Origin: Escherichia phage SmurfNell
Strand: one strand, 5' to 3'
Length of the DNA: 64,000 bases
Sequence record: OR896824.1
Shown in pieces: positions 17,937-56,675 of the stretch (positions are counted from its first letter, which is position 1; every line of letters begins with the position of its first letter). Both the position numbers and the translations under genes were made by a program. A model generated the notes under the pieces. It was not told the origin of the DNA and did no database searches. It was given only the letters and a program-made list of their open reading frames with translations.

Positions 17937-18789
17937 ATAAATTAGAGAACAGCGAGCCGATTACGCTGAGTGAGTTTAGTGATTCCTACTAGGATAGCTA
18001 CTCCACTGAATAGAGTCGGTGAGTTGGAGACTAGTAAGTACTCTGAGAGAGGCTACGAGCTAACGCTTATTGCTATTGATAGGGAACTGAAAATCTGCGG
18101 AAAACTCGGGAGCTGTCCCGAAATCTCGTAAACTCTTCTCTAGTTTATGTTAGTGGGGTGTCGAACTGACTTATGTGATAACACTGCCGTCCTAGTATAA
18201 ACGGTAATATCAAACCGTAACTGGTGGAAGATGCAGGTTCGAATCCTGCGGTCGGAAAGAATCAGATAACTCGGGCTTATACCGGATAAGCATTCGCTGC
18301 TGTAGTACATACTATGACGGTTCAGGAGGTACGCCTCCTGATCAGTATTAGGTTAGAATCGAAACAGCTAAACCACGAGGAAACCTGACGGCCTCAACCA
18401 AACTCGGAACTCGGGATCACTGCCTAGTGTGTACCCCGTTTAACCTGAGACTAGGCATCCAGCTTCGCATCGAAAATCGGAGGTGCGATTCTAACAGACC
18501 GCGTGAATATGAGAGTGGGAAACGCTGACATGAGAGATGTCACTAATGGTGCCCAATAGTACAGGTAATTCGCGATAATTCCTGTTGAGCGGCAGCAGTA
18601 GGCTGGGAGTCATGACCTAAGCCTAACCGAGTTCTTCACATACGGAGAACATAACCACAAAGTCACCCTGACTTAAACTGGAAGATATTGTCTGACGGAA
18701 GGGCTGCAGAGCTTAATCTGAGGGGGCTGACCCTACCTACCGTCGGGTATCTTTAAGAGCTTTTATAAGAGTTCTTAAAAATACCTAAA
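17937..18789 (+). ncRNA. promoter-driven structured non-coding region (candidate RNA gene or tRNA precursor leader)
   Basis: No ORF of 60 aa or more on either strand; many GC-rich hairpins; tRNA-like T-arm GCAGGTTCGAATCCTGC at 18233-18249 without a matching acceptor stem. Confidence 0.3.
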
Positions 18790-22159: not shown

Positions 22160-22456
22160 ATGAAACGCATTGTACTTGCATTGACTCTAGTATCTACTTC
22201 TGTATTTGCTGCTCCGCAACAGGAACTTTGTCAAGTTCAGGTTTGTAATAAGCTAGAACGATTTACTCTAAACATTTGGTCCCATATTAAAGATAATATG
22301 GGTGAACAGTGTTTTGATATTGTTCTGCCAAAAGAACAGGCTATTCCTGGTGCTGTTCTTAGCTCAGAATCACGTTGGTGGCAGGGTTCTTCTATCAATC
22401 CAACTAAGAAGTCAGTGACACGTATCAAACAAGTATATCAGTGCAAGGTTCAGTAA
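22160..22456 (+). CDS. secreted/periplasmic hypothetical protein
   Basis: Signal peptide MKRIVLALTLVSTSVFA; several Cys. Confidence 0.5.
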   Translation: MKRIVLALTLVSTSVFAAPQQELCQVQVCNKLERFTLNIWSHIKDNMGEQCFDIVLPKEQAIPGAVLSSESRWWQGSSINPTKKSVTRIKQVYQCKVQ

Positions 22457-22464
22457 AATTTCAC

Positions 22465-22493
22465 TTGCTTAATGTCGAAATTTTCTGTATAAT
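22465..22493 (+). promoter_or_regulatory. early promoter driving a tRNA operon
   Basis: TTGCTT-17-TATAAT, 15 nt upstream of tRNA-Ser. Confidence 0.6.
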
Positions 22494-22507
22494 ATATTCA
22501 TAAATTC

Positions 22508-22601
22508 GGAAGATTAACCCTAATGGTAAGGGAGCTGTTTGCTAAACAGCCAGTAGCTGTGGAGACACGGTGTGCCAGTTCGAATCTGGCATCTTCCTCC
22601 A
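22508..22601 (+). tRNA. tRNA-Ser (anticodon GCU), class II
   Basis: Acceptor GGAAGAT/ATCTTCC, anticodon loop TTGCTAA, long variable arm, T-loop TTCGAAT, CCA. Confidence 0.7.
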
Positions 22602-22606
22602 GATTT

Positions 22607-22684
22607 GGTTCTCAAGCTCATTTGGTATGAGCCGTCGCCTCATAAGCGAAAGGTAGGTAGGTTCGAATCCTCCGGGAGCCACCA
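22607..22684 (+). tRNA. tRNA with CAU anticodon (Met, fMet or Ile2)
   Basis: Acceptor GGTTCTC/GGGAGCC, anticodon loop CTCATAA, T-loop TTCGAAT, CCA. Confidence 0.7.
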
Positions 22685-22701
22685 ATTAATTAGGAGACTA
22701 T

Positions 22702-22887
22702 ATGTCACGCTTTCGAGAAATTGCTCAAGAGCTAGAAGAATGTGCCTGCCCAAAATGCTTCGGAGCAGGTGAATGGAACGATGCTGAACCTGGTGATACA
22801 TGGTATAATACATACGTTTGTACACATTGTAATAGTTCTGGTATTAATCCTGAATGCGGTATTTCTCTAGATATTGAGCGAGGCTAA
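22702..22887 (+). CDS. zinc-ribbon small protein
   Basis: CACPKC...CTHCNSSG double Cys pairs. Confidence 0.45.
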   Translation: MSRFREIAQELEECACPKCFGAGEWNDAEPGDTWYNTYVCTHCNSSGINPECGISLDIERG

Positions 22888-23221
22888 GATGGATATCTAC
22901 ACTACACCAGCAGTAAACCTGATTGGCTCTTGCCTTGTGCATTTCCGCTTCTTCCAAACGGATGATAGCAAAGAGGAGTATACCTATCCTCTGATGGATT
23001 TTCAGATTGAGGACTTCTTCCGTGAAGTGCGTAATATCTCTGAGAACTTCTATTATGGCATGGATAAGGAAGACTTTGACATTAAGTTCCCTATAATCTC
23101 TCGTTATTTCCTAGAGCAGTCCGATGCTCGGTTTGAGAAGATTGAACACATGGAAGTAGCCTGGGCTATCCAGTTCGAAATTACTGGCTTTGCTCGATAC
23201 ATTCAAGGTTACGAACTATGA
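22874..23221 (+). CDS. hypothetical protein
   Basis: 115 aa ORF. Confidence 0.45.
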   Translation: MSEAKMDIYTTPAVNLIGSCLVHFRFFQTDDSKEEYTYPLMDFQIEDFFREVRNISENFYYGMDKEDFDIKFPIISRYFLEQSDARFEKIEHMEVAWAIQFEITGFARYIQGYEL

Positions 23222-23313
23222 AATTAAAAGATTATTATATTGGTTGGTTTGTAGGACTAATAGTAGGATTTTCACTGGGCTACAACTTGTATCAACTGAT
23301 AAACTGATTACAT

Positions 23314-23390
23314 GGGGGTGTAATCGAATTGGCATAGGTACTGGACTTAAAATTCAGGTTTTGTGGGTTCGAATCCCACCACCCCTACCA
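23314..23390 (+). tRNA. tRNA with UAA anticodon (Leu-type), class I architecture
   Basis: Acceptor GGGGGTG/CACCCCT (G1-U72), anticodon loop CTTAAAA, 5 nt variable loop, T-loop TTCGAAT, A73, CCA. Confidence 0.55.
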
Positions 23391-23542
23391 AATTAAGGAA
23401 ATAAAAATGAAAGCTATTAAGAAAGCACTACGTAAATTTATGTACTGTCGTTTTCATAGCATCAAGTCTTCGACTAATGGTACGACTTATGATCGCTATG
23501 ATCCTAAGTTTGGCTTACATTCTAAATAACTGGAGAAAACAA

Positions 23543-23749
23543 ATGGCTAATCCTGAAATTACAGCACAACGCTTTATGCTGAAAGGAATTATTGCTGAAG
23601 CAGGCATGACAGAAGAAGTTGCAGATTTTCAAAAGCAATTCCTCAATATTCTCACTCAAGCCAAAGAGCTAGGAGAGAAAGAACATGACGCAGCTGTTAT
23701 GGCAATCACGTTGGTTGGGCTTGATCTGGCAGAAGAATCAGGAGTTTAA
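23543..23749 (+). CDS. hypothetical protein
   Basis: ATG at 23543 with GGAGAAAA RBS, inside track ORF 23477..23749. Confidence 0.45.
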   Translation: MANPEITAQRFMLKGIIAEAGMTEEVADFQKQFLNILTQAKELGEKEHDAAVMAITLVGLDLAEESGV

Positions 23750-23779
23750 CTCCTCCAAGCAGAAATTTTAAAAATGTAC

Positions 23780-23809
23780 TTGCTTTTTACTTAAGATTTC
23801 TGCTATAAT
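23780..23809 (+). promoter_or_regulatory. early promoter (TTGCTT-18-TATAAT)
   Basis: consensus hexamers plus ATAAATTGATGAAGGAG box. Confidence 0.55.
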
Positions 23810-23839
23810 AGTTATATAAATTGATGAAGGAGTTAACGA

Positions 23840-24115
23840 ATGTCAAAACGTGTTACTGCAACTGGTGTTGAAAGTGCTGTTTGTAAATCCTGGGGTGGCT
23901 GGGAAGGTGAGATTGAATGGCTTTATTTCTACGACGTAGAACTTCTGCCGGAAGTCAAAGCTAAATGTGTGGAAGCCGGTATGGCTCCTGATGCAAAGGC
24001 TGATATCGAAATCACCATGCCTAAGCTAGAAGGTCGTGTAATTACGCTCAATGATGATTATGAAGAAGTGTTCGAGCTTCCCTTCAAACTGAGTGTCACT
24101 CCTAGCTTCGAGTAA
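23840..24115 (+). CDS. hypothetical protein
   Basis: 91 aa ORF. Confidence 0.5.
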   Translation: MSKRVTATGVESAVCKSWGGWEGEIEWLYFYDVELLPEVKAKCVEAGMAPDAKADIEITMPKLEGRVITLNDDYEEVFELPFKLSVTPSFE

Positions 24116-24151
24116 CTGATATAGCACTGAGCAAGTTCTTTAAAATTTGAC

Positions 24152-24180
24152 TTGCTCAGTCCTTCAAATCTTGATATAAT
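24152..24180 (+). promoter_or_regulatory. early promoter driving a tRNA operon
   Basis: TTGCTC-17-TATAAT upstream of tRNA-Tyr. Confidence 0.55.
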
Positions 24181-24243
24181 AGTTATCTAATTTGGAAACA
24201 TATTTAAAAGTGTTTAAACTAGTATTTGAATATTTCTAAATAT

Positions 24244-24334
24244 GTTGGATTAGTATCGTAGAGGTAGCGAAGCAGACTGTAAATCTGCCGACTCGGAAGG
24301 GTCTCGGGTGGTTCGACTCCATCATCCAACACCA
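24244..24334 (+). tRNA. tRNA-Tyr (anticodon GUA), class II
   Basis: Acceptor GTTGGAT/ATCCAAC, anticodon loop CTGTAAA, long variable arm, T-loop TTCGACT, CCA. Confidence 0.7.
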
Positions 24335-24341
24335 AATTTAA

Positions 24342-24418
24342 GTCCTGTTAGACAAACTGGTAAAGTCACTACCCTTTCAAGGTAGGATTTGCGGGTTCGA
24401 TCCCCGCACAGGACGCCA
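24342..24418 (+). tRNA. tRNA-Glu (anticodon UUC)
   Basis: Acceptor GTCCTGT/ACAGGAC, anticodon loop CTTTCAA, T-loop TTCGATC, CCA. Confidence 0.75.
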
Positions 24419-24425
24419 ATTTCTG

Positions 24426-24503
24426 CATTCCTAGAGTGTTACTGGACAGCATGTCGGTCTCCAAAACCGTACGGTCTAGGTTCGAGTCCTAGTAGGTTTG
24501 CCA
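24426..24503 (+). tRNA. tRNA-like element, possible tRNA-Trp (anticodon CCA); acceptor stem unresolved
   Basis: T-arm CTAGG-TTCGAGT-CCTAG and encoded CCA at 24501-24503; candidate anticodon loop CTCCAAA; no canonical 5' acceptor strand found by eye. Confidence 0.3.
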
Positions 24504-24509
24504 ATATTT

Positions 24510-24584
24510 GCGACTTTAGCTGAGATGGATTAGCGTCTCCCTGAAAAGGAGAAGAGGTACGATCGTTACGTACAGGTTGCACCA
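24510..24584 (+). tRNA. tRNA-Phe (anticodon GAA) with atypical T-loop
   Basis: Acceptor GCGACTT/AGGTTGC, anticodon loop CTGAAAA, T-arm GTACG-ATCGTTA-CGTAC, CCA. Confidence 0.6.
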
Positions 24585-24595
24585 ATTTGAAGGAG

Positions 24596-24874
24596 ATGCT
24601 GATGCATCCTGAAAACTTCTTTATTTACTGTGCGGATAAGTCATTAAAACGCAGAATTAACAAAGTCTACCATTATCGTGCTAGTCAACAGCCTTATGTT
24701 TATGCTTTTGATGGAGAAACCATTCCACTAAAGCAGTTGGCATGTGATTACATGGTCTTGAAGAACTTTGATGAGACAAAGATCTCAAGCGTTCATAATC
24801 GACAGAATCCATTAACGTGGAAGTATAAGAAGAAAAAGAAAGGCATCAAATTTCTGAAAAATGTAGTTGCTTAA
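24596..24874 (+). CDS. hypothetical protein
   Basis: ATG at 24596 after GAAGGAG RBS, 12 nt after the tRNA-Phe CCA. Confidence 0.5.
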   Translation: MLMHPENFFIYCADKSLKRRINKVYHYRASQQPYVYAFDGETIPLKQLACDYMVLKNFDETKISSVHNRQNPLTWKYKKKKKGIKFLKNVVA

Positions 24875-24895
24875 ATCCTTAAAGTTCTGTATAAT
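24867..24895 (+). promoter_or_regulatory. early promoter (TTGCTT-17-TATAAT)
   Basis: consensus hexamers plus ATAAATTGAACTGGAGAAG box. Confidence 0.55.
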
Positions 24896-24924
24896 TATTA
24901 CATAAATTGAACTGGAGAAGCAAC

Positions 24925-25149
24925 ATGACAGAACAAGAATTAAAAGAACGTAAGCTGGTAATGCTTCGCTTACTAAACATTTTCTCTGGTATGGATGGTG
25001 GTATTGACTTCGTTCAACTACGCACTTTTGTAGAAGAAGCTGAAGGCGAATCTATTACTAAAATCCTTAAACATATGGGTTTATTACTAGACGCTGCTAA
25101 TGTAGCTACTGAATATAAATTAGAAGATCTACCGGAGCGTGTTTCATGA
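24925..25149 (+). CDS. hypothetical protein
   Basis: ATG at 24925 (track start 24907 is TTG). Confidence 0.45.
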   Translation: MTEQELKERKLVMLRLLNIFSGMDGGIDFVQLRTFVEEAEGESITKILKHMGLLLDAANVATEYKLEDLPERVS

Positions 25150-25337
25150 AAATGTTAGTTAAATTTAAGTGTTGTGGTTCTGAACATATTTTCACTCGTT
25201 ATAGAGAGTTTAAGATGTGTGAGTGTGGTAAGTCAGGCTATGATGCTGGAGATGGCTATTATGCTAGATCTATAGGACATTCTAAAGATCTAGAGTTTAC
25301 TAATCTCGAAAAGCAAGATAAATCGACCGTTGGCTGA
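25146..25337 (+). CDS. zinc-ribbon small protein
   Basis: CCGSEH...CECGKSGYD Cys pairs; 3' end overlaps the tRNA-Cys 5' end. Confidence 0.4.
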   Translation: MKMLVKFKCCGSEHIFTRYREFKMCECGKSGYDAGDGYYARSIGHSKDLEFTNLEKQDKSTVG

Positions 25338-25399
25338 ATGGCTTAGGCGGAGGCCTGCAAAACCTCCTTATGTGAGTTCGAATCTCATGCGGTCGTCCA
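25324..25399 (+). tRNA. tRNA-Cys (anticodon GCA)
   Basis: Acceptor CGACCGT/GCGGTCG, anticodon loop CTGCAAA, U73, T-loop TTCGAAT, CCA. Confidence 0.6.
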
Positions 25400-25406
25400 A
25401 ATTTTA

Positions 25407-25489
25407 GGGTCGTTAGCCAAGCGGTTTGGCGGTGGACTGTTAATCCATGTCGAAAGACAACGTAGGTTCGAATCCTACACGGCCCGCCA
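25407..25489 (+). tRNA. class II-type tRNA carrying a GUU (Asn-type) anticodon
   Basis: Acceptor GGGTCGT/ACGGCCC, anticodon arm GTGGA-CTGTTAA-TCCAT, 13 nt variable arm, G73, T-loop TTCGAAT, CCA. Confidence 0.55.
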
Positions 25490-25591
25490 TATTCTGTGTA
25501 GAGTTAAGTAAACCGGTAGCCAACCAGCTATCATTACTGATATTGAATTCAGTCACAGATACCATTTTCATTAATAACTGAGGAAATAGAT

Positions 25592-25777
25592 ATGACAACT
25601 CGTGCAATTGCTCGACTAGAAGCTGATCGTGATAGTCTGATTAATAATATTAAGGTTTGGGATCAAGAAATTGAAAACCAAAAACTGACATTAATTCAAG
25701 ATATGCAGCAACAGAATGCCCGTCGTGAAGCTCTAAAAGAGGTTGAGGAAGCTATCGAAAAACTCAAAACTGAGTAA
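25592..25777 (+). CDS. hypothetical coiled-coil protein
   Basis: 61 aa ORF with GAGGAAA RBS. Confidence 0.45.
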   Translation: MTTRAIARLEADRDSLINNIKVWDQEIENQKLTLIQDMQQQNARREALKEVEEAIEKLKTE

Positions 25778-25786
25778 ATAAATTAT

Positions 25787-25863
25787 GCGATCGGGGCTGG
25801 CTTGGTAATGGTACTCCCCTGTCACGGGAGAAAATGTGGGTTCGAATCCCATCGGTCGCGCCA
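25787..25863 (+). tRNA. tRNA-Asp (anticodon GUC)
   Basis: Acceptor GCGATCG/CGGTCGC, anticodon loop CTGTCAC, T-loop TTCGAAT, CCA. Confidence 0.75.
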
Positions 25864-25939
25864 ATTTTTGCAGGACGCTGGTATAGATAACCACCGCGTG
25901 GGAAGTGTCTATATTTAGAGCACTGCAAAACATAATAAT

Positions 25940-26015
25940 ACATCCATAGCTCAATGGTTAGAGCTACCGCCTCTTAAGCGGAGGGTTCTAGGTTCAAGTC
26001 CTAGTGGGTGTACCA
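25940..26015 (+). tRNA. tRNA-Lys (anticodon CUU)
   Basis: Acceptor ACATCCA/TGGGTGT, D-arm GCTC..GAGC, anticodon loop CTCTTAA, T-loop TTCAAGT, CCA. Confidence 0.6.
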
Positions 26016-26228
26016 AACATCAGAGTAGCGTGATGTACTGCAAAGACCCAAAGTCCGGGGTGGACTTCTTGATTCAAAGGAGCAGGCATTAATTATCATT
26101 CTAGCGTGGTGGAGAGGGGACACCAGCTTGCCGAGGGTAGAAGCTCGTTCGATTCGAGTGAAAGAATGGTTCTCGTAAATCCGCACAAGTGATAGCAGGT
26201 TCAAGTCCTGCCTAGATTGACTTATTAT

Positions 26229-26302
26229 GCGTTCGTAGTTAAAAGGTATAATTTTTGGTTGCCAACCAGAAGTTGAGGGTTCGATTCCCTCCGACCGCAC
26301 CA
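26229..26302 (+). tRNA. tRNA-Gly (anticodon GCC)
   Basis: Acceptor GCGTTCG/CGACCGC (one mismatch), anticodon loop TTGCCAA, T-loop TTCGATT, CCA. Confidence 0.65.
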
Positions 26303-26550
26303 AATTTAGGTTTCTGCTTCCTAGAGAACTGACGCCTAGATAAACAAGGCGATGAGTTTCCGGCCGGTTCTAGTCGCTGAAAATCCTCCCGACCAGGTAG
26401 GTGTAAGTAAACGAAAGTTTACTTATTAAGTAAGTCCGACACATCGGCGGGTGTGTTCTAGTACTTAAAGAAGGTCTCGCAAACTTTCTCGCTAGCATGA
26501 GTTGATAGCTCGGTGACTTACCTAATAAGTAAATTTATTAAAAAATGTAG

Positions 26551-26579
26551 TTGCTATTTAGCTTAATTCTCTGTATAAT
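26551..26579 (+). promoter_or_regulatory. early promoter driving a tRNA operon
   Basis: TTGCTA-17-TATAAT upstream of tRNA-Pro. Confidence 0.55.
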
Positions 26580-26611
26580 ATATTTTATAAAGTGAGTTAA
26601 CAAAGAATATT

Positions 26612-26689
26612 CTCCGTGTAGCTCAGTTTGGCCAGAGCGTTTCGTTTGGGGCGATAGGGTCGGGGGTTCAAATCCTCCCACGGAGACCA
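26612..26689 (+). tRNA. tRNA-Pro (anticodon UGG)
   Basis: Acceptor CTCCGTG/CACGGAG, D-arm GCTC..GAGC, anticodon loop TTTGGGG, T-loop TTCAAAT, CCA. Confidence 0.75.
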
Positions 26690-26695
26690 AACAAT

Positions 26696-26773
26696 TGCGG
26701 GTTAGATCTCTGGTAGAGATCGCTAGTCTCATAAGCTAGAAAGAGGTAGGTTCGATTCCTGCACCCGCTTCCA
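26696..26773 (+). tRNA. tRNA with CAU anticodon (second copy; initiator-like 1-72 mismatch)
   Basis: Acceptor TGCGGGT/ACCCGCT with U1xU72 mismatch, anticodon loop CTCATAA, T-loop TTCGATT, CCA. Confidence 0.65.
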
Positions 26774-26794
26774 ATTTAATAGAAGGATTTCTAA

Positions 26795-26959
26795 ATGAAA
26801 TTGTTTCGTTTAAAAGTAAGTGATATACGTTCTAGTAAAGATCGTAAGAAGTATCCACTAGCTCACTACGGTAAAGATGAAAACGAAGTGATGGCGGAAT
26901 TTGGTATTAATCATCCTTACTTGAAAATATACTCTATCAAAGAAGTATACATGTATTAA
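26795..26959 (+). CDS. small hypothetical protein (54 aa)
   Basis: ORF with AAGGA RBS between two tRNAs, below the track cutoff. Confidence 0.35.
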   Translation: MKLFRLKVSDIRSSKDRKKYPLAHYGKDENEVMAEFGINHPYLKIYSIKEVYMY

Positions 26960-26961
26960 AT

Positions 26962-27040
26962 AGATCGCTAGCTCAATTGGTTTAGCAGCACCCGGCTTTT
27001 AACCGGAAGGTTCTGGGTTCGAGTCCCAGGCGGTCTACCA
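26962..27040 (+). tRNA. tRNA-Lys (anticodon UUU)
   Basis: Acceptor AGATCGC/GCGGTCT, anticodon arm CCGG-CTTTTAA-CCGG, T-loop TTCGAGT, CCA. Confidence 0.75.
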
Positions 27041-27057
27041 ATTTAAAGGAATTTGTT

Positions 27058-27375
27058 ATGAATATTAACAAAGTTCTAGAAACAATATCAGAAATGTCTG
27101 GTAGAGCTGGAAAACGCTTTACTGAACTATGTATTAAAAATCAAAAAATACCAGAACATCAATGTCATTATTGTCGAGACTGTGAACAATACCATGAAAT
27201 GTGTGTGGTTGAAGATTGGATCTGGGATCAGATAAGAAAAGAACAATCCAAAGATATTGTTCTATGTTTTACTTGTATGGAACGACGTTTAGGACGTAAA
27301 ATTACTCTTAAAGATCTTAAACATGTTCCCTGTAACGCTCCTTACTTCATTGGTTTTAGAATGGAGAGATTTTGA
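27058..27375 (+). CDS. Cys-rich zinc-binding protein
   Basis: CHYCRDCEQYHEMC and CFTC motifs. Confidence 0.5.
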   Translation: MNINKVLETISEMSGRAGKRFTELCIKNQKIPEHQCHYCRDCEQYHEMCVVEDWIWDQIRKEQSKDIVLCFTCMERRLGRKITLKDLKHVPCNAPYFIGFRMERF

Positions 27376-27518
27376 TGATAATCTGGTTTTACTTAATGAA
27401 ACAAAAAGTCAAGCAGTACAACGTATTTTCTGCTGATTTTACTATTGGAATGTTCTTAGCAGGATTATGTGAGTTTCTGTTTGAAGCATTCTTAATCGGA
27501 AGTCTTTTGCTCGGTTAG
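27375..27518 (+). CDS. small membrane peptide (47 aa)
   Basis: Hydrophobic ORF overlapping the previous stop, below the track cutoff. Confidence 0.3.
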   Translation: MIIWFYLMKQKVKQYNVFSADFTIGMFLAGLCEFLFEAFLIGSLLLG

Positions 27519-27582
27519 TTTAATGGGAGAACCCCGTCTTTACACGGCGGTTGCGATAGTTCGATTCTATCACCGAGTACCA
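27509..27582 (+). tRNA. tRNA-Val (anticodon UAC)
   Basis: Acceptor GCTCGGT/ACCGAGT, anticodon arm CCGTC-TTTACAC-GGCGG, T-loop TTCGATT, CCA. Confidence 0.65.
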
Positions 27583-27601
27583 ATTAACTCAAAATAAGGA
27601 A

Positions 27602-27961
27602 TTGCAAATGCAATTATCAAGCAAGGTTCAAGGCTACTTCGGTCATGTAACAATGGAGTTCGCTATCTCTAAAGGTTGGGACTTCGAACAAGATTTAGCT
27701 GAGTTCTACAAAGATATTGATCTGAACGTACCGTACATGGGACTCTCTACTGGTCAGGAAATCACAGAAGCCGATGTATTCAAGGCAAGTCAAGGTGAGA
27801 TAACACCTAGTTTTGCCGAGTTCTGGTTAGGAATTACTCTGAAAGATGATGCACCGGATGGTGGTGTGGTTATGCAGAGTATGCACTCTGGAAGCTCTGA
27901 TTACCTTTTCGTTAGCGACGTTAAGGAAATACAAGAAATCTGCAAAAATGTACTTGCTTGA
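27602..27961 (+). CDS. hypothetical protein
   Basis: 119 aa acidic ORF. Confidence 0.5.
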   Translation: MQMQLSSKVQGYFGHVTMEFAISKGWDFEQDLAEFYKDIDLNVPYMGLSTGQEITEADVFKASQGEITPSFAEFWLGITLKDDAPDGGVVMQSMHSGSSDYLFVSDVKEIQEICKNVLA

Positions 27962-27982
27962 TACTTAATTTCTTGTTATAAT
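27954..27982 (+). promoter_or_regulatory. early promoter driving a structured leader and tRNA operon
   Basis: TTGCTT-17-TATAAT; transcript would start with the TTGATGAGGAGAAATCCTCATCAA hairpin. Confidence 0.55.
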
Positions 27983-28018
27983 ATTTATATAAATTGATGA
28001 GGAGAAATCCTCATCAAA

Positions 28019-28244
28019 GTTCACTAAGGTATTAGCTCGACCTAGGACTGGCTGCCAAAAAGCACGGTTGCAATTAGACCCCTAATGGCGGGGGATACTT
28101 TGCAAGAAGTTCTAGATTAGTCCACTAGATTCAGCGGCAACTGAATAGTGTATCGGGTTTGTGAAGAGCGGTTATCCTCTACTGGCTAATGTCTGAGGGT
28201 AATACGCACGCCGAGCTAATAGCCTTAGTAAACTTAAAGATTTT
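28019..28244 (+). other. non-coding leader between promoter and tRNA-Ala (possible small RNA)
   Basis: About 225 nt without an ORF, GC-balanced unlike the AT-rich spacers. Confidence 0.25.
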
Positions 28245-28318
28245 GGGGATATAGTTTAATGGTAGAACATCTGCTTTGCACGCAGAAGACGAGGGTTCAA
28301 CTCCCCCTTTCTCCACCA
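28245..28318 (+). tRNA. tRNA-Ala (anticodon UGC)
   Basis: Acceptor GGGGATA/TTTCTCC with G3-U70, anticodon arm TCTGC-TTTGCAC-GCAGA, T-loop TTCAACT, CCA. Confidence 0.6.
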
Positions 28319-28324
28319 AAATTT

Positions 28325-28400
28325 GGGGTCATAGGTTATTTGGTTAAACTTACTGCCTTGCAAGCAGTGGAACTCAGTTCAATTCTGAGTGACTCCACCA
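28325..28400 (+). tRNA. tRNA-Ala-like second copy (anticodon UGC)
   Basis: Acceptor GGGGTCA/TGACTCC with G3-U70, anticodon arm ACTGC-CTTGCAA-GCAGT, T-loop TTCAATT, CCA. Confidence 0.5.
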
Positions 28401-28413
28401 AATTAGAGGAAGC

Positions 28414-28875
28414 ATGGCTAGAACAGATATATTGGAAAGAAAGGATGAAATTCTTCTCTGGATAGAAGAAAATCAACCCAAAGCTGAAATTGCTAGAAGA
28501 TTACGCTGCAAAGTTGATACACTGAATACTTATCTGAAAAAGATGGGAATACAATATTCAGGTAACTCTGCTAGAAAAGGTTTTATACGTTCTGAGATAC
28601 AGGATGGGTATATTCCGGCAGTGAATTACTTTTACAAAAATAGCCCAATATCTTCTAGTCAGCTTAGAATAAAGATACTACGTGATGGCTTAAAACCTCA
28701 CAAATGTGAAAATTGTAATTTATCTGAATGGATGGGAGTTCCAATCCCCTTAGAGTTAGAGCATAAAGATGGTGATCATTATAATAATGAGTGGGATAAT
28801 TTAGCTTTATTATGTCCCAACTGTCATACACTAACAGATACACATTCAGGTAAGAATAAAGGAACATACGCGTGA
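28414..28875 (+). CDS. HNH endonuclease with N-terminal HTH, inserted in the tRNA island
   Basis: C-terminal HKCENCN...EHKDGDHYNNEWDNLALLCPNCH HNH motif. Confidence 0.75.
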   Translation: MARTDILERKDEILLWIEENQPKAEIARRLRCKVDTLNTYLKKMGIQYSGNSARKGFIRSEIQDGYIPAVNYFYKNSPISSSQLRIKILRDGLKPHKCENCNLSEWMGVPIPLELEHKDGDHYNNEWDNLALLCPNCHTLTDTHSGKNKGTYA

Positions 28876-28946
28876 TTGATGGAATTGGCATACATACCGT
28901 CCTTAGAAGTCGGGTTTTGAGGGTTCGAATCCCTTGTCACGCACCA
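28870..28946 (+). tRNA. tRNA with UAG anticodon (Leu-type), class I architecture
   Basis: Acceptor GCGTGAT/GTCACGC, anticodon loop CTTAGAA, 5 nt variable loop, A73, CCA; scaffold resembles the tRNA at 23314; 5' end overlaps the HNH stop. Confidence 0.5.
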
Positions 28947-28963
28947 ATTTTGTAGTAAACAAC

Positions 28964-29063
28964 GGAAGAGCAAATCGATAGGTGACGAAAACCGCTTGGA
29001 AAGTGGCTGACTTGTGAAAGCAGGCTTGAGAGTTCGAATCTCTCTTCTTCCGCCAAACAATAG
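28964..29063 (+). tRNA. tRNA-like element, about 100 nt, fold unresolved
   Basis: Complementary termini GGAAGAG/TTCTTCC, T-arm GAGAG-TTCGAAT-CTCTC, G73, CCA; too long for a standard tRNA. Confidence 0.3.
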
Positions 29064-29069
29064 AAGATA

Positions 29070-29151
29070 GGACGTAGTGGTACGTAACCGGTCTTGAAAA
29101 CCGGCCCGCTGTAGTGATACGGTGATGGTTCGACTCCATTATCTTCTGCCA
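29070..29151 (+). tRNA. tRNA-Ser (anticodon UGA), class II
   Basis: Acceptor AGAAGAT/ATCTTCT, anticodon arm CCGGT-CTTGAAA-ACCGG, long variable arm, G73, CCA. Confidence 0.7.
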
Positions 29152-29466
29152 AATCTTGAAGTATGCCGGAATCGGTAGACGGGGCTTCCTAAAGGGCGTA
29201 AGAGGAACATCCACTCCTCATAAGATACCCGAAAACGAGGCTGAGATAAATGGTCTATCTCGTGAAGGTTCAAGTCCTTCTGCTTCTTGATATTCAATGG
29301 CTCAAAGAGTAACGGTGCACCTTTCTAGAGAATTTTCTGGGCGAGAATCCAGAAGTAATCAACTAGTTGTTAGTGTGATGAGTTTCGGAGAGCCGCCACA
29401 ATTGAAGTCTTTAGAATGGGTATCGCCCTTTAGCCCCTCCGAAAGGGATAACTAGAGATTTCAATT

Positions 29467-29543
29467 GTGGCTATATCATAATTGGTTAATGATCCTGATT
29501 GTGAATCAGGCCTATGTGGATTCGAATTCCACTAGCCACCCCA
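29467..29543 (+). tRNA. tRNA-His (anticodon GUG)
   Basis: Acceptor GTGGCTA/TAGCCAC, anticodon arm CCTGA-TTGTGAA-TCAGG, C73, CCA. Confidence 0.75.
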
Positions 29544-29549
29544 AATATT

Positions 29550-29624
29550 GCGTCCTTATTTCAATGGAAAGAATGTAAAGCTACGAACTTTACGATCGGG
29601 GTTCGATTCCCTGAGGATGCACCA
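29550..29624 (+). tRNA. tRNA-Arg (anticodon ACG)
   Basis: Acceptor GCGTCCT/AGGATGC, anticodon arm GTAAAG-CTACGAA-CTTTAC, A73, CCA. Confidence 0.75.
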
Positions 29625-29648
29625 ATTAACTTATATAGGAAATAAAAT

Positions 29649-29849
29649 ATGGCTGATTTCTGCAAAGAATGCTCTATCGATATGTGGGGCAAAGATACTG
29701 GTGATCTTTCTGGTCTGATTACAGAAGCCGAAGTTAAAGAAGGCTATGGTGCTGTTGTAATCTGTGAAGGTTGTGGTATTATTCGTGTTGATCATAATGG
29801 TAAACGTCTAGAAGAACCAGATCCAATTGCCACGGTTCCTGTAGAATAA
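29649..29849 (+). CDS. zinc-ribbon small protein
   Basis: CKEC...CEGCG motifs. Confidence 0.45.
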   Translation: MADFCKECSIDMWGKDTGDLSGLITEAEVKEGYGAVVICEGCGIIRVDHNGKRLEEPDPIATVPVE

Positions 29850-29856
29850 AAATTAT

Positions 29857-29932
29857 TGGGATGTAGATCAATTGGCAGATCGTCGGCCTCTGACTCCGAA
29901 GGTTCCACGTTCGATCCGTGGCATCCCAGCCA
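29857..29932 (+). tRNA. tRNA-Gln (anticodon CUG)
   Basis: Acceptor TGGGATG/CATCCCA with U1-A72 and G73, anticodon loop CTCTGAC, CCA. Confidence 0.65.
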
Positions 29933-29938
29933 AATACT

Positions 29939-30014
29939 TGGAGAGTAGTGTAACGGTTAGCACAACGGCCTTTGACTCCGTTAATGGTAGGTTCGATTCC
30001 TCCTTCTCCAGCCA
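29939..30014 (+). tRNA. tRNA-Gln (anticodon UUG)
   Basis: Acceptor TGGAGAG/TTCTCCA with U1-A72 and G73, anticodon loop CTTTGAC, CCA. Confidence 0.65.
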
Positions 30015-30020
30015 ATTTAT

Positions 30021-30095
30021 GCGTGATTAGTTCAGTGGCTAGAATAACTGGCTTCCAACCAGTAGACACGAGTTCGACTCTCGTATCCCGCACCA
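30021..30095 (+). tRNA. tRNA-Gly (anticodon UCC)
   Basis: Acceptor GCGTGAT/ATCCCGC, anticodon arm CTGG-CTTCCAA-CCAG, T-loop TTCGACT, CCA. Confidence 0.7.
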
Positions 30096-30111
30096 AATAT
30101 AAGAAAACGTT

Positions 30112-30333
30112 ATGGACGTTTTTGAGTTTCGTAATAAAAACCCTAGTAGACGAGTTTTAATTATTGGTGAAACATATCGAGCTTATGAGCAAGAAGATGG
30201 TTCGGTTTTATTAAATGATGAAAAGCAAGGCTATAGTTTTCATCCAGAAGAAACATATGAGGAATTTCGTACTAAGTTTCTTTTACCAGACTGGCTAGCA
30301 ATAGCTGAGCAAAGAGAACCCGAAGATGGCTGA
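30112..30333 (+). CDS. hypothetical protein
   Basis: 73 aa ORF. Confidence 0.45.
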   Translation: MDVFEFRNKNPSRRVLIIGETYRAYEQEDGSVLLNDEKQGYSFHPEETYEEFRTKFLLPDWLAIAEQREPEDG

Positions 30334-30488
30334 TAATCTAAAGCTAAAGGTAGATAAACAAATGAAGTGCGTTGAGGTTGAGTTGGGTGAAGAACGTTTA
30401 AAACTCTCCTTCGAATTCTTACAACAGTTGGCTATGACAGTAATGTCTGATAAGTCTCCTGTATTTGAAAAAGAAATTCCGTTGAAAT
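30321..30488 (+). CDS. small hypothetical protein (55 aa)
   Basis: ORF overlapping the previous stop, below the track cutoff. Confidence 0.3.
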
Positions 30489-30500
30489 AACGGGTTTATT

Positions 30501-30575
30501 GCTCCTAAAGCATTGCTGGCGATGCAGTTGCCTTGTAAGCATCTGAACCGGGTTCGATTCCTGGTGGGAGCACCA
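30501..30575 (+). tRNA. tRNA-Thr (anticodon UGU)
   Basis: Acceptor GCTCCTA/TGGGAGC, D-arm GCAT..ATGC, anticodon loop CTTGTAA, T-loop TTCGATT, CCA. Confidence 0.7.
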
Positions 30576-30590
30576 AATTTAAAAATTCAT

Positions 30591-30620
30591 TTGCCTTCTC
30601 TCTTATTTCTTGTTATAATA
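30591..30620 (+). promoter_or_regulatory. early promoter (TTGCCT-18-TATAAT)
   Basis: consensus hexamers plus ATAAATTAATGAGAGGG box. Confidence 0.55.
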
Positions 30621-30649
30621 TTTATATAAATTAATGAGAGGGAAACCAA

Positions 30650-30943
30650 ATGAAACGTTATCTTTCTGTCGTGTTCCAAACTGGTGGTCAACGCTACACT
30701 TATGAATTTCCTGAGTCCTGGAAAATTAAAGAAGGTGATCAAGTTGTTGTATTAACACCTCGTGAAGGCTTCAAAGTAGTAACGGTTAAACAAGTATTTC
30801 CAAAAGATCACGAACCATCTAAGTCTATTCAGTACAAGATGATTCATGGTCTAGTTCGTAAAGTACCACGAACTGAGGTAGAAGTAGATAAGACTGGTGA
30901 AGCTAAATACCAGTATACTTCTTACTTAGATGAAATGATGTAA
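30650..30943 (+). CDS. hypothetical protein
   Basis: 97 aa ORF. Confidence 0.5.
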   Translation: MKRYLSVVFQTGGQRYTYEFPESWKIKEGDQVVVLTPREGFKVVTVKQVFPKDHEPSKSIQYKMIHGLVRKVPRTEVEVDKTGEAKYQYTSYLDEMM

Positions 30944-30944
30944 T

Positions 30945-31020
30945 GCTCTGATAGTTCAACAGGTTAGAACAGGCGACCGATAATCGTCAAATCTTGGTTC
31001 GATCCCAAGTCGGAGTACCA
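30945..31020 (+). tRNA. tRNA-Ile (anticodon GAU)
   Basis: Acceptor GCTCTGA/TCGGAGT, D-arm GTTC..GAAC, anticodon arm GGCGA-CCGATAA-TCGTC, T-loop TTCGATC, CCA. Confidence 0.65.
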
Positions 31021-31026
31021 AATTAT

Positions 31027-31099
31027 AGTTAGTTGGCAGAGCGGTTATGCACCTCCTTCATACGGAGCGACTACAGTGGTTCAAATCCACTACTAACTA
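31027..31099 (+). tRNA. tRNA with CAU anticodon (third copy), no encoded CCA
   Basis: Perfect acceptor AGTTAGT/ACTAACT, anticodon loop TTCATAC, T-arm AGTGG-TTCAAAT-CCACT; followed by ACTA rather than CCA. Confidence 0.45.
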
Positions 31100-31470
31100 C
31101 TAAACAGAGGATCAGGTAATTGTACCAGATCCTGCTGAGAAGAGAGTCCACATTCTATAAATGGCCGGGCGTGACAGCAGGAAGTAGACTGCAACTCCAT
31201 GCTATCCAGGAGTATAAATGTAGAAGCTAAGACTTTAGATAGCCATTGTCTTAGCGTGAGCAATCACGTAGTTGCAACAGACCTGGAAGATCGCAACGTT
31301 AAAATCAAAGTTCCAGTGCTTATTTATCTAATCGAGACCATCAATCTCACCGGAATGCTAGCACCCCAACAGTAGCTAGTGATTAGATAATAAGCAAGCC
31401 TGCCTTCCAGTTTTTATCTTGCTTCTGGGTTAACAAAAAGCTGAGCCAAATTCTAACATCAGGGAGATCT
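31100..31470 (+). other. structured non-coding region downstream of the tRNA island
   Basis: 370 nt without an ORF of 60 aa or more; higher GC than flanks; hairpins such as GGATCAGG...CCAGATCC. Confidence 0.25.
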
Positions 31471-56429: not shown

Positions 56430-56675
56430 TTGACCGGAGTTATTAAAATGATTTTCTTTCCTAGTGAAGCGTTTATTTTAGGTTTATTTATAGTTGCCGC
56501 TATATTTATATTTAATTACGGCAAATATATAATCTCTATTATCGGCATTAATTCAGCTTATGCCGCTGATATGTTTAAACGTCAAGCTAATAAACAAAAA
56601 TATCTGGCGATTATATTTTTAACGCTGGCTATTAGTTGCGGGTTTAGTTCTAGTCTTATGCCAATTCTAGAATAA
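56430..56675 (+). CDS. small membrane protein
   Basis: Two TM helices. Confidence 0.45.
   Translation: MTGVIKMIFFPSEAFILGLFIVAAIFIFNYGKYIISIIGINSAYAADMFKRQANKQKYLAIIFLTLAISCGFSSSLMPILE

What the first reader, a model, noticed from the sequence alone, without database searches (positions are those of the whole stretch)
23314..28946. Two paralogous class I tRNAs with Leu-type anticodons (UAA at 23314, UAG at 28870)
Both share the D-region GAATTGGCATA, a 5 nt variable loop GTTTT and A73, but have anticodon loops CTTAAAA and CTTAGAA. Bacterial tRNA-Leu is normally class II. These appear to be short-arm tRNAs for UUA and CUA, which are frequent in this AT-rich genome and, as I recall, rare in E. 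coli.
Basis: partly seen in the sequence, partly recalled or inferred. Interest (0 to 1): 0.5.

Follow-up and report, generated by a model that had tools for sequence, protein, structure and literature searches.

The report
Short-arm leucine tRNAs in T5-like phage
Two genuine phage tRNA genes read leucine codons but lack the long extra arm that bacterial leucine tRNAs normally have; they keep every feature the host leucine-charging enzyme is known to need, and belong to a large, mostly phage-borne family that the papers I could search do not discuss.

Summary
The window is a T5-like Salmonella/Escherichia phage (Epseptimavirus-like) with a 30-gene tRNA cluster. tRNA-Leu(UAA) lies at 23314-23390 and tRNA-Leu(UAG) at 28870-28946. 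Each is 77 nt with an encoded CCA, a 5-nt variable loop GUUUU, A73 and the D region GAAUUGGCAUA. Both align with E. coli leuZ and leuW along the whole body, apart from a 10-12 nt gap at the variable arm. All reported E. coli LeuRS determinants are present: A73, A14, A15-U48, G18G19 and A20a.

The UAG gene is 100% identical to phage BF23 tRNAL1. That GenBank record says the CUA-anticodon version is an effective amber suppressor, so this body works in E. coli.

CUA is about 6.6 times more frequent in the phage than in an E. coli sample (17.2 against 2.6 per 1000 codons). UUA is about 1.7 times more frequent.

The short arm is not unique to this phage. A pattern scan of viral contigs reached its 120-contig limit, and 106 distinct sequences show strong covariation and 100% A73. 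In the same loci Ser and Tyr tRNAs keep their arms. Only 84 contigs among 185,579 bacterial and archaeal species matched.

Verdict: real and correctly interpreted. The genes are already annotated, but the phage-wide class I Leu family seems under-described. Interest is moderate.

The parts
23314..23390 (+). tRNA-Leu(UAA), class I, 77 nt with encoded CCA. G1.U72, A73, 3-bp D stem with G13.A22, D loop AAUUGGCAU. The A36-A37-A38 anticodon loop is of the type that takes i6A37.
   Evidence: ARAGORN. Rfam 57.4 bits. Aligns with leuZ. At least 99% identical in 292 phage records.
23326..23336 (+). Leu-type D region G13-A22 (GAAUUGGCAUA) of the UAA tRNA. It carries A14, A15, G18G19 and A20a.
   Evidence: The motif is nearly specific to Leu-anticodon tRNAs in viral loci: 33/108 Leu against 4 of about 1490 others.
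23348..23350 (+). Anticodon TAA (reads UUA/UUG)
23358..23362 (+). 5-nt variable loop GUUUU, with U48 as partner of A15
28870..28946 (+). tRNA-Leu(UAG), class I, 77 nt with encoded CCA, A73, and a U30.U40 mismatch in the anticodon stem. Identical to BF23 tRNAL1.
   Evidence: ARAGORN. Rfam 47.5 bits. 77/77 identity to NC_042564.1 3881-3957.
28882..28892 (+). Leu-type D region GAAUUGGCAUA of the UAG tRNA
28904..28906 (+). Anticodon TAG (reads CUA/CUG and, if U34 is modified as in the host tRNA, further CUN codons). Position 37 is A, not the G37 of host leuW.
28914..28918 (+). 5-nt variable loop GUUUU

Best explanation
These are two functional phage-encoded leucine tRNAs of class I architecture. 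They are transcribed within the phage tRNA/small-ORF cluster and processed to 77-nt tRNAs whose CCA end is genome-encoded. The host LeuRS charges them with leucine. Enterobacterial LeuRS ignores the anticodon and does not need the long variable arm. It reads A73, A14, the A15-U48 pair, the placement of G18G19 and A20a, and both tRNAs keep all of these. They then decode UUR (UAA anticodon) and CUA/CUN (UAG anticodon). This supplements a host pool that is poor in the CUA reader, for a 40%-GC phage that uses CUA about 6.6 times and UUA about 1.7 times more often than the host sample. The arm could be lost because Leu is the one class II identity in these hosts whose synthetase does not depend on it. 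Shown here: gene structure, conservation, covariation, presence of the determinants, codon bias, and identity to a BF23 tRNA recorded as suppressor-competent. Inferred: leucylation by host LeuRS, the U34 and A37 modifications, and the benefit to the phage.
For: The alignment with E. coli leuZ/leuW and phage relatives shows a 10-12 nt gap at the variable arm, substitutions scattered through the rest of the body, and A14, A15, G18, G19, A20a, A22, U48 and A73 invariant. The E. coli determinant list and the dispensability of the arm are from the review PMC9976931. BF23 tRNAL1 is 77/77 identical and carries the GenBank note 'replacement of the anticodon with CUA sequence converts this tRNA into effective amber suppressor'. 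The genes are more conserved than their surroundings: the UAA tRNA is at least 99% identical in 292 records, while the 8.8-kb region is mostly 80-95% identical. In 106 distinct viral class I Leu tRNAs, 99.2% of cells are paired, 17 of 20 pairs show double changes, and 0 of 500 shuffles reach this. A73 is present in 123/123, although it was not part of the search pattern. In the same viral loci Ser (103/105) and Tyr (55/58) keep long arms. No class II Leu gene is present in the window.
Against: No aminoacylation or expression data exist for these exact genes in this phage. The BF23 note does not say which amino acid the suppressor inserts, and CUA-anticodon tRNAs can be mischarged. Fan et al. 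2019 (PMC6614811) found that E. coli LeuRS could not leucylate the Streptomyces type I tRNALeu(CAA) and describe EcLeuRS as charging only type II tRNALeu. That tRNA has variable loop ACAGC with C48, not U48. The same paper cites crystal contacts between the EcLeuRS C-terminal domain and variable-arm nucleotides 47f-47i. Single-sequence MFE folding does not return the cloverleaf, with z-scores of -1.2 and -1.4. The UAG tRNA has a U.U mismatch in the anticodon stem and A37 instead of G37. UUA enrichment is only 1.7-fold.
Confidence: 0.8

Rival explanations
1. Counter-defence substitute. The main selective value is not codon supply. The armless Leu tRNAs, with altered anticodon loops (C32 and A37/A38 in the UAG tRNA, against U32, G37 and U38 in host leuW), would escape host or rival-phage effectors that recognise, cut or extend class II tRNAs through the long variable arm or the anticodon loop. 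Phage translation would then continue when host tRNA-Leu is disabled. This can coexist with the best explanation.
For: [quoted passage not shown] AbiEii appears to prefer class II tRNAs (bioRxiv 10.64898/2026.01.19.700257). Syntenic Leu(UAG) alleles in T5-like phages have variable regions of 5, 9 and 13 nt against 15-17 nt in the host. Class I makes up about 10% of matching viral tRNA-Leu but is very rare in bacterial genomes.
Against: The papers I read name no bacterial effector that targets the variable arm of tRNA-Leu. Loss of the arm is equally expected from relaxed constraint, since LeuRS does not need it. Class I Leu forms mostly one coherent lineage, with a class I nearest neighbour in 104/106 cases, rather than many recent independent losses.
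Confidence: 0.15
2. Different identity or recoding. The tRNAs carry Leu anticodons but are charged by another synthetase, so the phage would insert another amino acid at UUR/CUN codons.
For: Class I architecture is atypical for bacterial Leu. EcLeuRS failed on one natural type I tRNALeu. In-window identity to the Arg, His and Gln tRNAs is only a few points lower than between the two Leu tRNAs.
Against: The D-loop signature is nearly exclusive to Leu-anticodon tRNAs, at 33/108 against 4 of about 1490. A73 is invariant. By established identity rules (my knowledge, plus PMC9976931) there is no G3.U70 (Ala), no long arm (Ser), no C35/A20 (Arg), no U35 (Tyr, Gln, Lys, Asn, Asp, Glu), no C36 (Val) and no G34 (Phe). 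The body aligns with leuZ/leuW.
Confidence: 0.03
3. Decaying or non-translational tRNA-like genes, for example remnants, decoys or processing signals for the neighbouring small ORFs.
For: T5-like tRNA regions do contain tRNA-like stable RNAs of unknown function (annotations). MFE folds are unremarkable. The UAG tRNA has a stem mismatch.
Against: All invariant tRNA positions, the CCA and the cloverleaf are maintained, with abundant compensatory changes across 106 relatives. Sequence is near-identical in hundreds of phages. The BF23 twin is suppressor-competent.
Confidence: 0.02

Closest known systems
Phage BF23 tRNAL1 (NC_042564.1, tRNA gene region) and T5 tRNAL1(UAG)
   Same: BF23 tRNAL1 is identical (77/77) to the window's tRNA-Leu(UAG) and lies in the same place, between tRNA-Ala and tRNA-Ser2. 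T5 tRNAL1 occupies the same syntenic slot. Both records note conversion into amber suppressors: 'effective' for BF23, plain 'amber suppressor' for T5.
   Different: T5 tRNAL1 is 85 nt with a 13-nt variable region that forms a short stem, so it is still a reduced class II tRNA. Neither T5 nor the BF23 region carries the UAA tRNA.
E. coli tRNA-Leu leuZ (UAA) and leuW (UAG), class II
   Same: Same anticodons, the same 3-bp D stem with G13.A22, and the same D-loop length and register. A14, A15, G18G19, A20a, U48 and A73 are shared, as is G1.U72 in the UAA species.
   Different: The host genes have variable regions of 15-17 nt. The phage tRNAs have 5 nt, U21 instead of G21, C32, and A37/A38 in the UAG species instead of G37/U38. 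BLAST found no host chromosomal counterpart.
Streptomyces coelicolor type I tRNALeu(CAA) (Fan et al. 2019, PMC6614811)
   Same: A bacterial-world tRNA-Leu with a 5-nt variable loop. It is leucylated by a bacterial LeuRS and coexists with class II species in one cell.
   Different: Its variable loop is ACAGC with C48, and ScoLeuRS does not use A73. E. coli LeuRS does not charge it. The phage tRNAs have a U-rich loop with U48 and an E. coli-type D loop. Common descent was not tested.
Animal mitochondrial tRNA-Leu(UUR/CUN)
   Same: Class I Leu tRNAs that rely on A73 and A14 (PMC9976931).
   Different: They have mitochondrial, often degenerate, D/T loops and their own LeuRS. The phage tRNAs have canonical G18G19 and a TΨC-type T loop.
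Phage T4 tRNA-Leu
   Same: A phage-encoded Leu tRNA sitting in a tRNA cluster.
   Different: It is 87 nt, hence class II.

Membership tests
tRNA (Rfam RF00005) | Score above the gathering threshold of the tRNA covariance model | tested here: met
   57.4 and 47.5 bits against 29. ARAGORN cloverleaves.
Enterobacterial LeuRS substrate (E. coli tRNA-Leu identity set) | Discriminator A73 | tested here: met
   A73 in both. 123/123 in viral class I relatives.
Enterobacterial LeuRS substrate (E. coli tRNA-Leu identity set) | A14 (with U8) and the A15-U48 tertiary pair | tested here: met
   U8, A14, A15 and U48 are invariant columns in the alignments with leuZ/leuW. The determinant list is from PMC9976931.
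Enterobacterial LeuRS substrate (E. coli tRNA-Leu identity set) | G18G19 in the Leu-specific register of the D loop, and A20a | tested here: met
   The D region has the same length and register as leuZ/leuW (G13 A14 A15 U16 N17 G18 G19 Y20 A20a N21 A22).
Enterobacterial LeuRS substrate (E. coli tRNA-Leu identity set) | Actual leucylation by host LeuRS | not testable with these tools
   Indirect only: the identical BF23 tRNAL1 becomes an effective amber suppressor in E. coli. The amino acid inserted is not stated.
Class II (long-arm) bacterial tRNA-Leu | Variable region of more than 10 nt forming a stem-loop | tested here: not met
   5-nt loop GUUUU in both. This is a hallmark of the class, not an E. 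coli identity determinant.
Type I tRNA-Leu (mitochondrial or Streptomyces kind) | Leu anticodon with a 4-5 nt variable loop in a canonical cloverleaf | tested here: met
Type I tRNA-Leu (mitochondrial or Streptomyces kind) | Common descent with the Streptomyces type I tRNALeu(CAA) | not tested
   The sequence was not retrieved. Its published variable loop ACAGC/C48 differs from the phage loop, typically NUUYU.
Phage class I tRNA-Leu family (defined here) | Leu-type D loop, 5-nt U-rich variable loop ending in U48, U21 and A73 | tested here: met
   Both window tRNAs have U21, GUUUU and A73. In the family, U21 is found in 99/106 against G21 in 89/107 class II, and GUUUU is the commonest variable loop.

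The most novel reading that the evidence does not exclude
Loss of the variable arm is an adaptive counter-defence. A phage-borne lineage of armless tRNA-Leu would persist because it cannot be seen by effectors that dock on or cut the long arm of class II tRNAs, as retron-Eco7 and Septu do for tRNA-Tyr and MenT3/AbiEii-type nucleotidyltransferases do for long-arm tRNAs. An as yet unidentified anti-phage system would then target the variable arm of host tRNA-Leu. As a corollary, enterobacterial LeuRS efficiently charges a natural type I tRNA-Leu, contrary to the statement that EcLeuRS charges only type II.
Probability: 0.15. Interest if true: 0.7.

Novelty: new member of a known kind. Interest (0 to 1): 0.4.

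Why it matters
Textbook bacterial tRNA-Leu is class II, and a 2019 study described E. coli LeuRS as charging only type II tRNA-Leu. These are natural class I Leu tRNAs used by phages of E. coli and Salmonella. One is identical to a BF23 tRNA recorded as suppressor-competent in E. coli. They are also part of a family that makes up roughly a tenth of matching tRNA-Leu genes in viral contigs and is almost absent from bacterial chromosomes.

This gives a natural test of the in vitro conclusion that the Leu arm is dispensable. It offers compact Leu-type scaffolds for suppressor or orthogonal tRNA design. It also raises the question of whether arm loss is streamlining or escape from tRNA-directed immunity. 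For annotating this window the matter is ordinary: the genes are already labelled tRNA-Leu in relatives.

Tried and rejected
- **Long-arm or other-anticodon fold:** rejected. The genes are 74 nt before the CCA, and ARAGORN and Rfam agree.
- **Single-sequence MFE folding:** it gives non-cloverleaf structures with unremarkable z-scores, so it was uninformative. Comparative covariation was used instead.
- **BLAST against 5,426 E. coli genomes:** no chromosomal homologue. There were only 23-nt plasmid matches for the UAA tRNA and none for the UAG tRNA, so host tRNAs were fetched by coordinates.
- **Class I UAG allele carried by the upstream HNH homing endonuclease:** rejected. Only 13 of 167 records with this tRNA also have the HNH gene.
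- **Promoter and terminator scans of 22400-31400:** not above shuffled expectation.
- **Many recent independent arm losses:** not supported. 104 of 106 class I sequences have a class I nearest neighbour, and the closest class I/class II pair is 89% identical.
- **Literature:** seven full-text searches on this question found no paper on class I tRNA-Leu in phages. One of them turned up the Streptomyces type I tRNALeu paper. Larkin 2002 and Sargen & Helaine 2024 were not held.
- **tRNAscan-SE isotype models:** not available. A D-loop signature specificity count served as a substitute.
Full report
**What the window is.** The 8.8-kb stretch around the finding is 92-96% identical to Salmonella and Escherichia T5-like phages. 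These include OSY-STA, STWB21, EH2 and Stitch, of Demerecviridae, Markadamsvirinae, Epseptimavirus. The window has 39.9% G+C. ARAGORN finds 30 tRNA genes on the + strand between 18790 and 31100, and Rfam confirms 28 of them at gathering score.

**Checking the observation.** ARAGORN places tRNA-Leu(taa) at 23314-23390 and tRNA-Leu(tag) at 28870-28946, each 77 nt.
- The drawn cloverleaves have a 7-bp acceptor stem, a 3-bp D stem flanked by G13 and A22, and an AAUUGGCAU D loop.
- They also have a 5-bp anticodon stem, a 5-nt variable loop GUUUU, a 5-bp T stem with a UUCGAAU loop, A73 and a genome-encoded CCA. The UAG tRNA has one U.U mismatch in its anticodon stem.
- The motif GAATTGGCATA sits at 23326-23336 and 28882-28892. 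The anticodon loops are CTTAAAA and CTTAGAA.
- Rfam scores are 57.4 and 47.5 bits against a threshold of 29.

'Paralogous' is the weakest word in it. The two are each other's best match among the 30 window tRNAs, but at 71% against 69% and 68% for the next best.

**Are they Leu tRNAs that lost an arm, or other tRNAs with changed anticodons?** I fetched E. coli leuZ (UAA, 87 nt) and leuW (UAG, 85 nt) and aligned them with the phage genes. The two phage tRNAs align with the host genes from end to end. The only indel is a 10-12 nt gap at the variable arm, and the rest of the difference is scattered base substitutions.

The D region has the same length and register as in the host: G13 A14 A15 U16 N17 G18 G19 Y20 A20a N21 A22. 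Invariant columns include U8, A14, A15, G18, G19, A20a, A22, U48 and A73.

According to the identity review PMC9976931, E. coli LeuRS uses A73, A14, the A15-U48 pair, G18G19 and A20a. It does not use the anticodon, and neither the sequence nor the fold of the long arm matters. Every listed determinant is therefore present.

As a substitute for isotype models, I counted the strict D-loop signature in viral tRNA clusters, leaving out the tRNAs the scan had selected on. It occurs in 33 of 108 Leu-anticodon tRNAs of either class. Among about 1490 tRNAs of all other isotypes it occurs 4 times. By the established rules for the other synthetases no competing identity fits. There is no G3.U70, no long arm, no C35/A20, no U35, no C36 and no G34. 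This last point rests on my own knowledge and the review.

**Direct functional evidence.** A search with the HNH-plus-tRNA segment showed that the classical phage BF23 carries the same tRNA. An alignment gives 77/77 identity to tRNAL1 of NC_042564.1. That record's note reads 'replacement of the anticodon with CUA sequence converts this tRNA into effective amber suppressor'. So this exact body is expressed, processed, aminoacylated and used by ribosomes in E. coli.

T5 itself has a Leu(UAG) gene in the same slot between tRNA-Ala and tRNA-Ser2, with the plainer note 'converts this tRNA into amber suppressor'. It is 85 nt with a 13-nt variable region. STWB21 has a third allele there, 81 nt with an unstructured 9-nt variable loop. 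Its D and anticodon arms closely resemble those of leuW. T5-like phages therefore show a 5/9/13-nt series against 15-17 nt in the host. T4 tRNA-Leu is 87 nt, hence class II.

**Conservation.** The UAA tRNA is at least 99% identical in 292 phage records. The UAG tRNA is at least 95% identical in 161. The surrounding region is mostly 80-95% identical. Both genes are usually annotated tRNA-Leu in these records.

**How general is the short arm?** Related 77-78 nt Leu(UAG) genes occur in several other phage groups:
- Felixounavirus
- Seunavirus
- Vibrio phage JSF12 (Ermolyevavirinae)
- Aeromonas phage LAh_8

ARAGORN analysis of those loci gave the following.
- There are 231 Leu tRNAs, of which 180 are 79 nt or shorter, with anticodons UAG, UAA and CAA.
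- 37 loci carry both classes.
- tRNA-Ser is long in 103 of 105 cases, and tRNA-Tyr is 80 nt or longer in 55 of 58.
- Position 73, which the pattern did not specify, is A in 123 of 123.

Among 106 distinct sequences the cloverleaf is paired in 99.2% of cells. 17 of 20 pairs show changes on both sides. No shuffle out of 500, and no slid register, comes close.

When the pattern allowed any variable region of 5-25 nt, 12 of the first 120 viral contigs had the 5-nt version. The rest peaked at 13 and 15 nt. Class I is thus roughly a tenth of this kind of viral tRNA-Leu gene.

The same class I pattern matched only 84 contigs among 185,579 bacterial and archaeal species genomes. All were called tRNA-Leu. 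61 sit in stretches with at least five tRNA genes within 8 kb or less, and many are small MAG contigs. The viral enrichment is large, but I could not compute an exact bacterial denominator.

Class I sequences form a coherent group. The nearest neighbour is another class I in 104 of 106 cases. The group has its own signature: U21 in 99/106 against G21 in 89/107 class II, A9 in 37/106 against 1/107, and a U-rich variable loop that is typically NUUYU.

**Codon usage.** Figures are per 1000 codons, from 106 non-overlapping window ORFs (16,085 codons) and a 50-kb annotated E. coli K-12 sample.

| Codon | Window | E. coli sample | Share of Leu codons |
|---|---|---|---|
| CUA | 17.2 | 2.6 | 20% vs 3% |
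| UUA | 19.0 | 11.0 | 22% vs 11% |
| CUU | 16.5 | 11.6 | 19% vs 11% |
| CUG | 17.0 | 54.1 | 20% vs 52% |

**Mechanism.** The best-supported reading is that host LeuRS leucylates both tRNAs through A73 and the D-loop/U48 core, and that they boost decoding of UUR and CUA/CUN for the phage. The arm could be lost because Leu is the one class II identity in these hosts that does not depend on it. The intact Ser and Tyr arms in the same clusters fit this.

The caveats are real. Fan et al. 2019 found E. coli LeuRS inactive on the Streptomyces type I tRNALeu(CAA), whose variable loop is ACAGC with C48, and they describe EcLeuRS as a type II-only enzyme. The UAG tRNA has A37 instead of G37 and a U.U mismatch. 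The amino acid inserted by the BF23 suppressor is not recorded. MFE folding of the single sequences is uninformative.

A non-exclusive alternative is escape from tRNA-directed immunity. Several precedents exist.
- MenT3 needs the long loop of tRNA-Ser.
- AbiEii seems to prefer class II tRNAs.

No effector aimed at the tRNA-Leu arm turned up in what I could read, so this stays a hypothesis.

**Comparison and novelty.** The genes are already annotated, and one has a functional record in BF23. Type I tRNA-Leu is known from mitochondria and from Streptomyces (PMC6614811). I did not find any description of a phage-wide class I tRNA-Leu family, or of its implication for enterobacterial LeuRS. Seven full-text searches bore on this. 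One of them surfaced the Streptomyces paper, and none returned a phage case. Old T5/BF23 papers are outside the library. I file the finding as a new member of a known kind, with moderate interest.

Noticed in passing
window 28414-28875 (+): A 153-aa HNH homing-endonuclease ORF lies between tRNA-Ala and tRNA-Leu(UAG). Its stop codon falls 6 nt inside the tRNA gene. Only 13 of 167 phage records carrying this tRNA also have the ORF, so it is a secondary insertion.
   Followed up: partly
window 25407-25489 (+): tRNA-Asn(GUU) is 83 nt, and ARAGORN draws an unpaired variable loop of about 12 nt. That is the opposite trend to the Leu tRNAs. The T5 counterpart is 78 nt.
   Followed up: partly
window 18186-18257 (+): Rfam calls a tRNA here at 29.3 bits, just above the gathering score of 29, but ARAGORN does not. 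It may be a tRNA-like element comparable to the stable RNAs of unknown function annotated in T5 and BF23.
   Followed up: no
L001:6998-7078, L002:6625-6709 (-), window 28870-28946: Three alleles of tRNA-Leu(UAG) occupy the same slot in T5-like phages, with variable regions of 9 nt (STWB21), 13 nt (T5) and 5 nt (this window and BF23). The D and anticodon arms of the STWB21 allele closely resemble E. coli leuW, which suggests a separate origin from a leuW-like gene followed by shortening of the arm.
   Followed up: partly
L135, L138, L158, L169, L175, L177, L193, L203 (Chryseobacterium); L132, L148, L179 (Microbulbifer): Isolate genomes of several Chryseobacterium and Microbulbifer species carry class I tRNA-Leu(UAG) genes inside tRNA-dense stretches of 8-22 tRNAs per 8 kb. 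These could be chromosomal tRNA arrays or prophages.
   Followed up: no
IMG/VR loci L011-L130: Class I and class II phage Leu tRNAs differ at core positions: U21 against G21, and frequent A9 against almost none. This suggests a repacking of the tertiary core that accompanies arm loss. ARAGORN also called 7 'tRNA-Pyl' and 1 'tRNA-Stop' (possible suppressor tRNAs) in these loci.
   Followed up: partly
window 28245-28318 and 28325-28400; 22607-22684, 26696-26773, 31027-31100: There are two adjacent, non-identical tRNA-Ala(UGC) genes and three CAU-anticodon tRNAs. From the T5 annotation these are probably the initiator, the elongator Met and the lysidine-type Ile2. The last one lacks an encoded CCA.
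   Followed up: no
window 56657-56667 (-): A third exact copy of GAATTGGCATA lies outside the tRNA cluster. It is within chance expectation (4 matches observed at up to one mismatch, against a mean of 1.7 and a maximum of 4 in shuffles).
   Followed up: no
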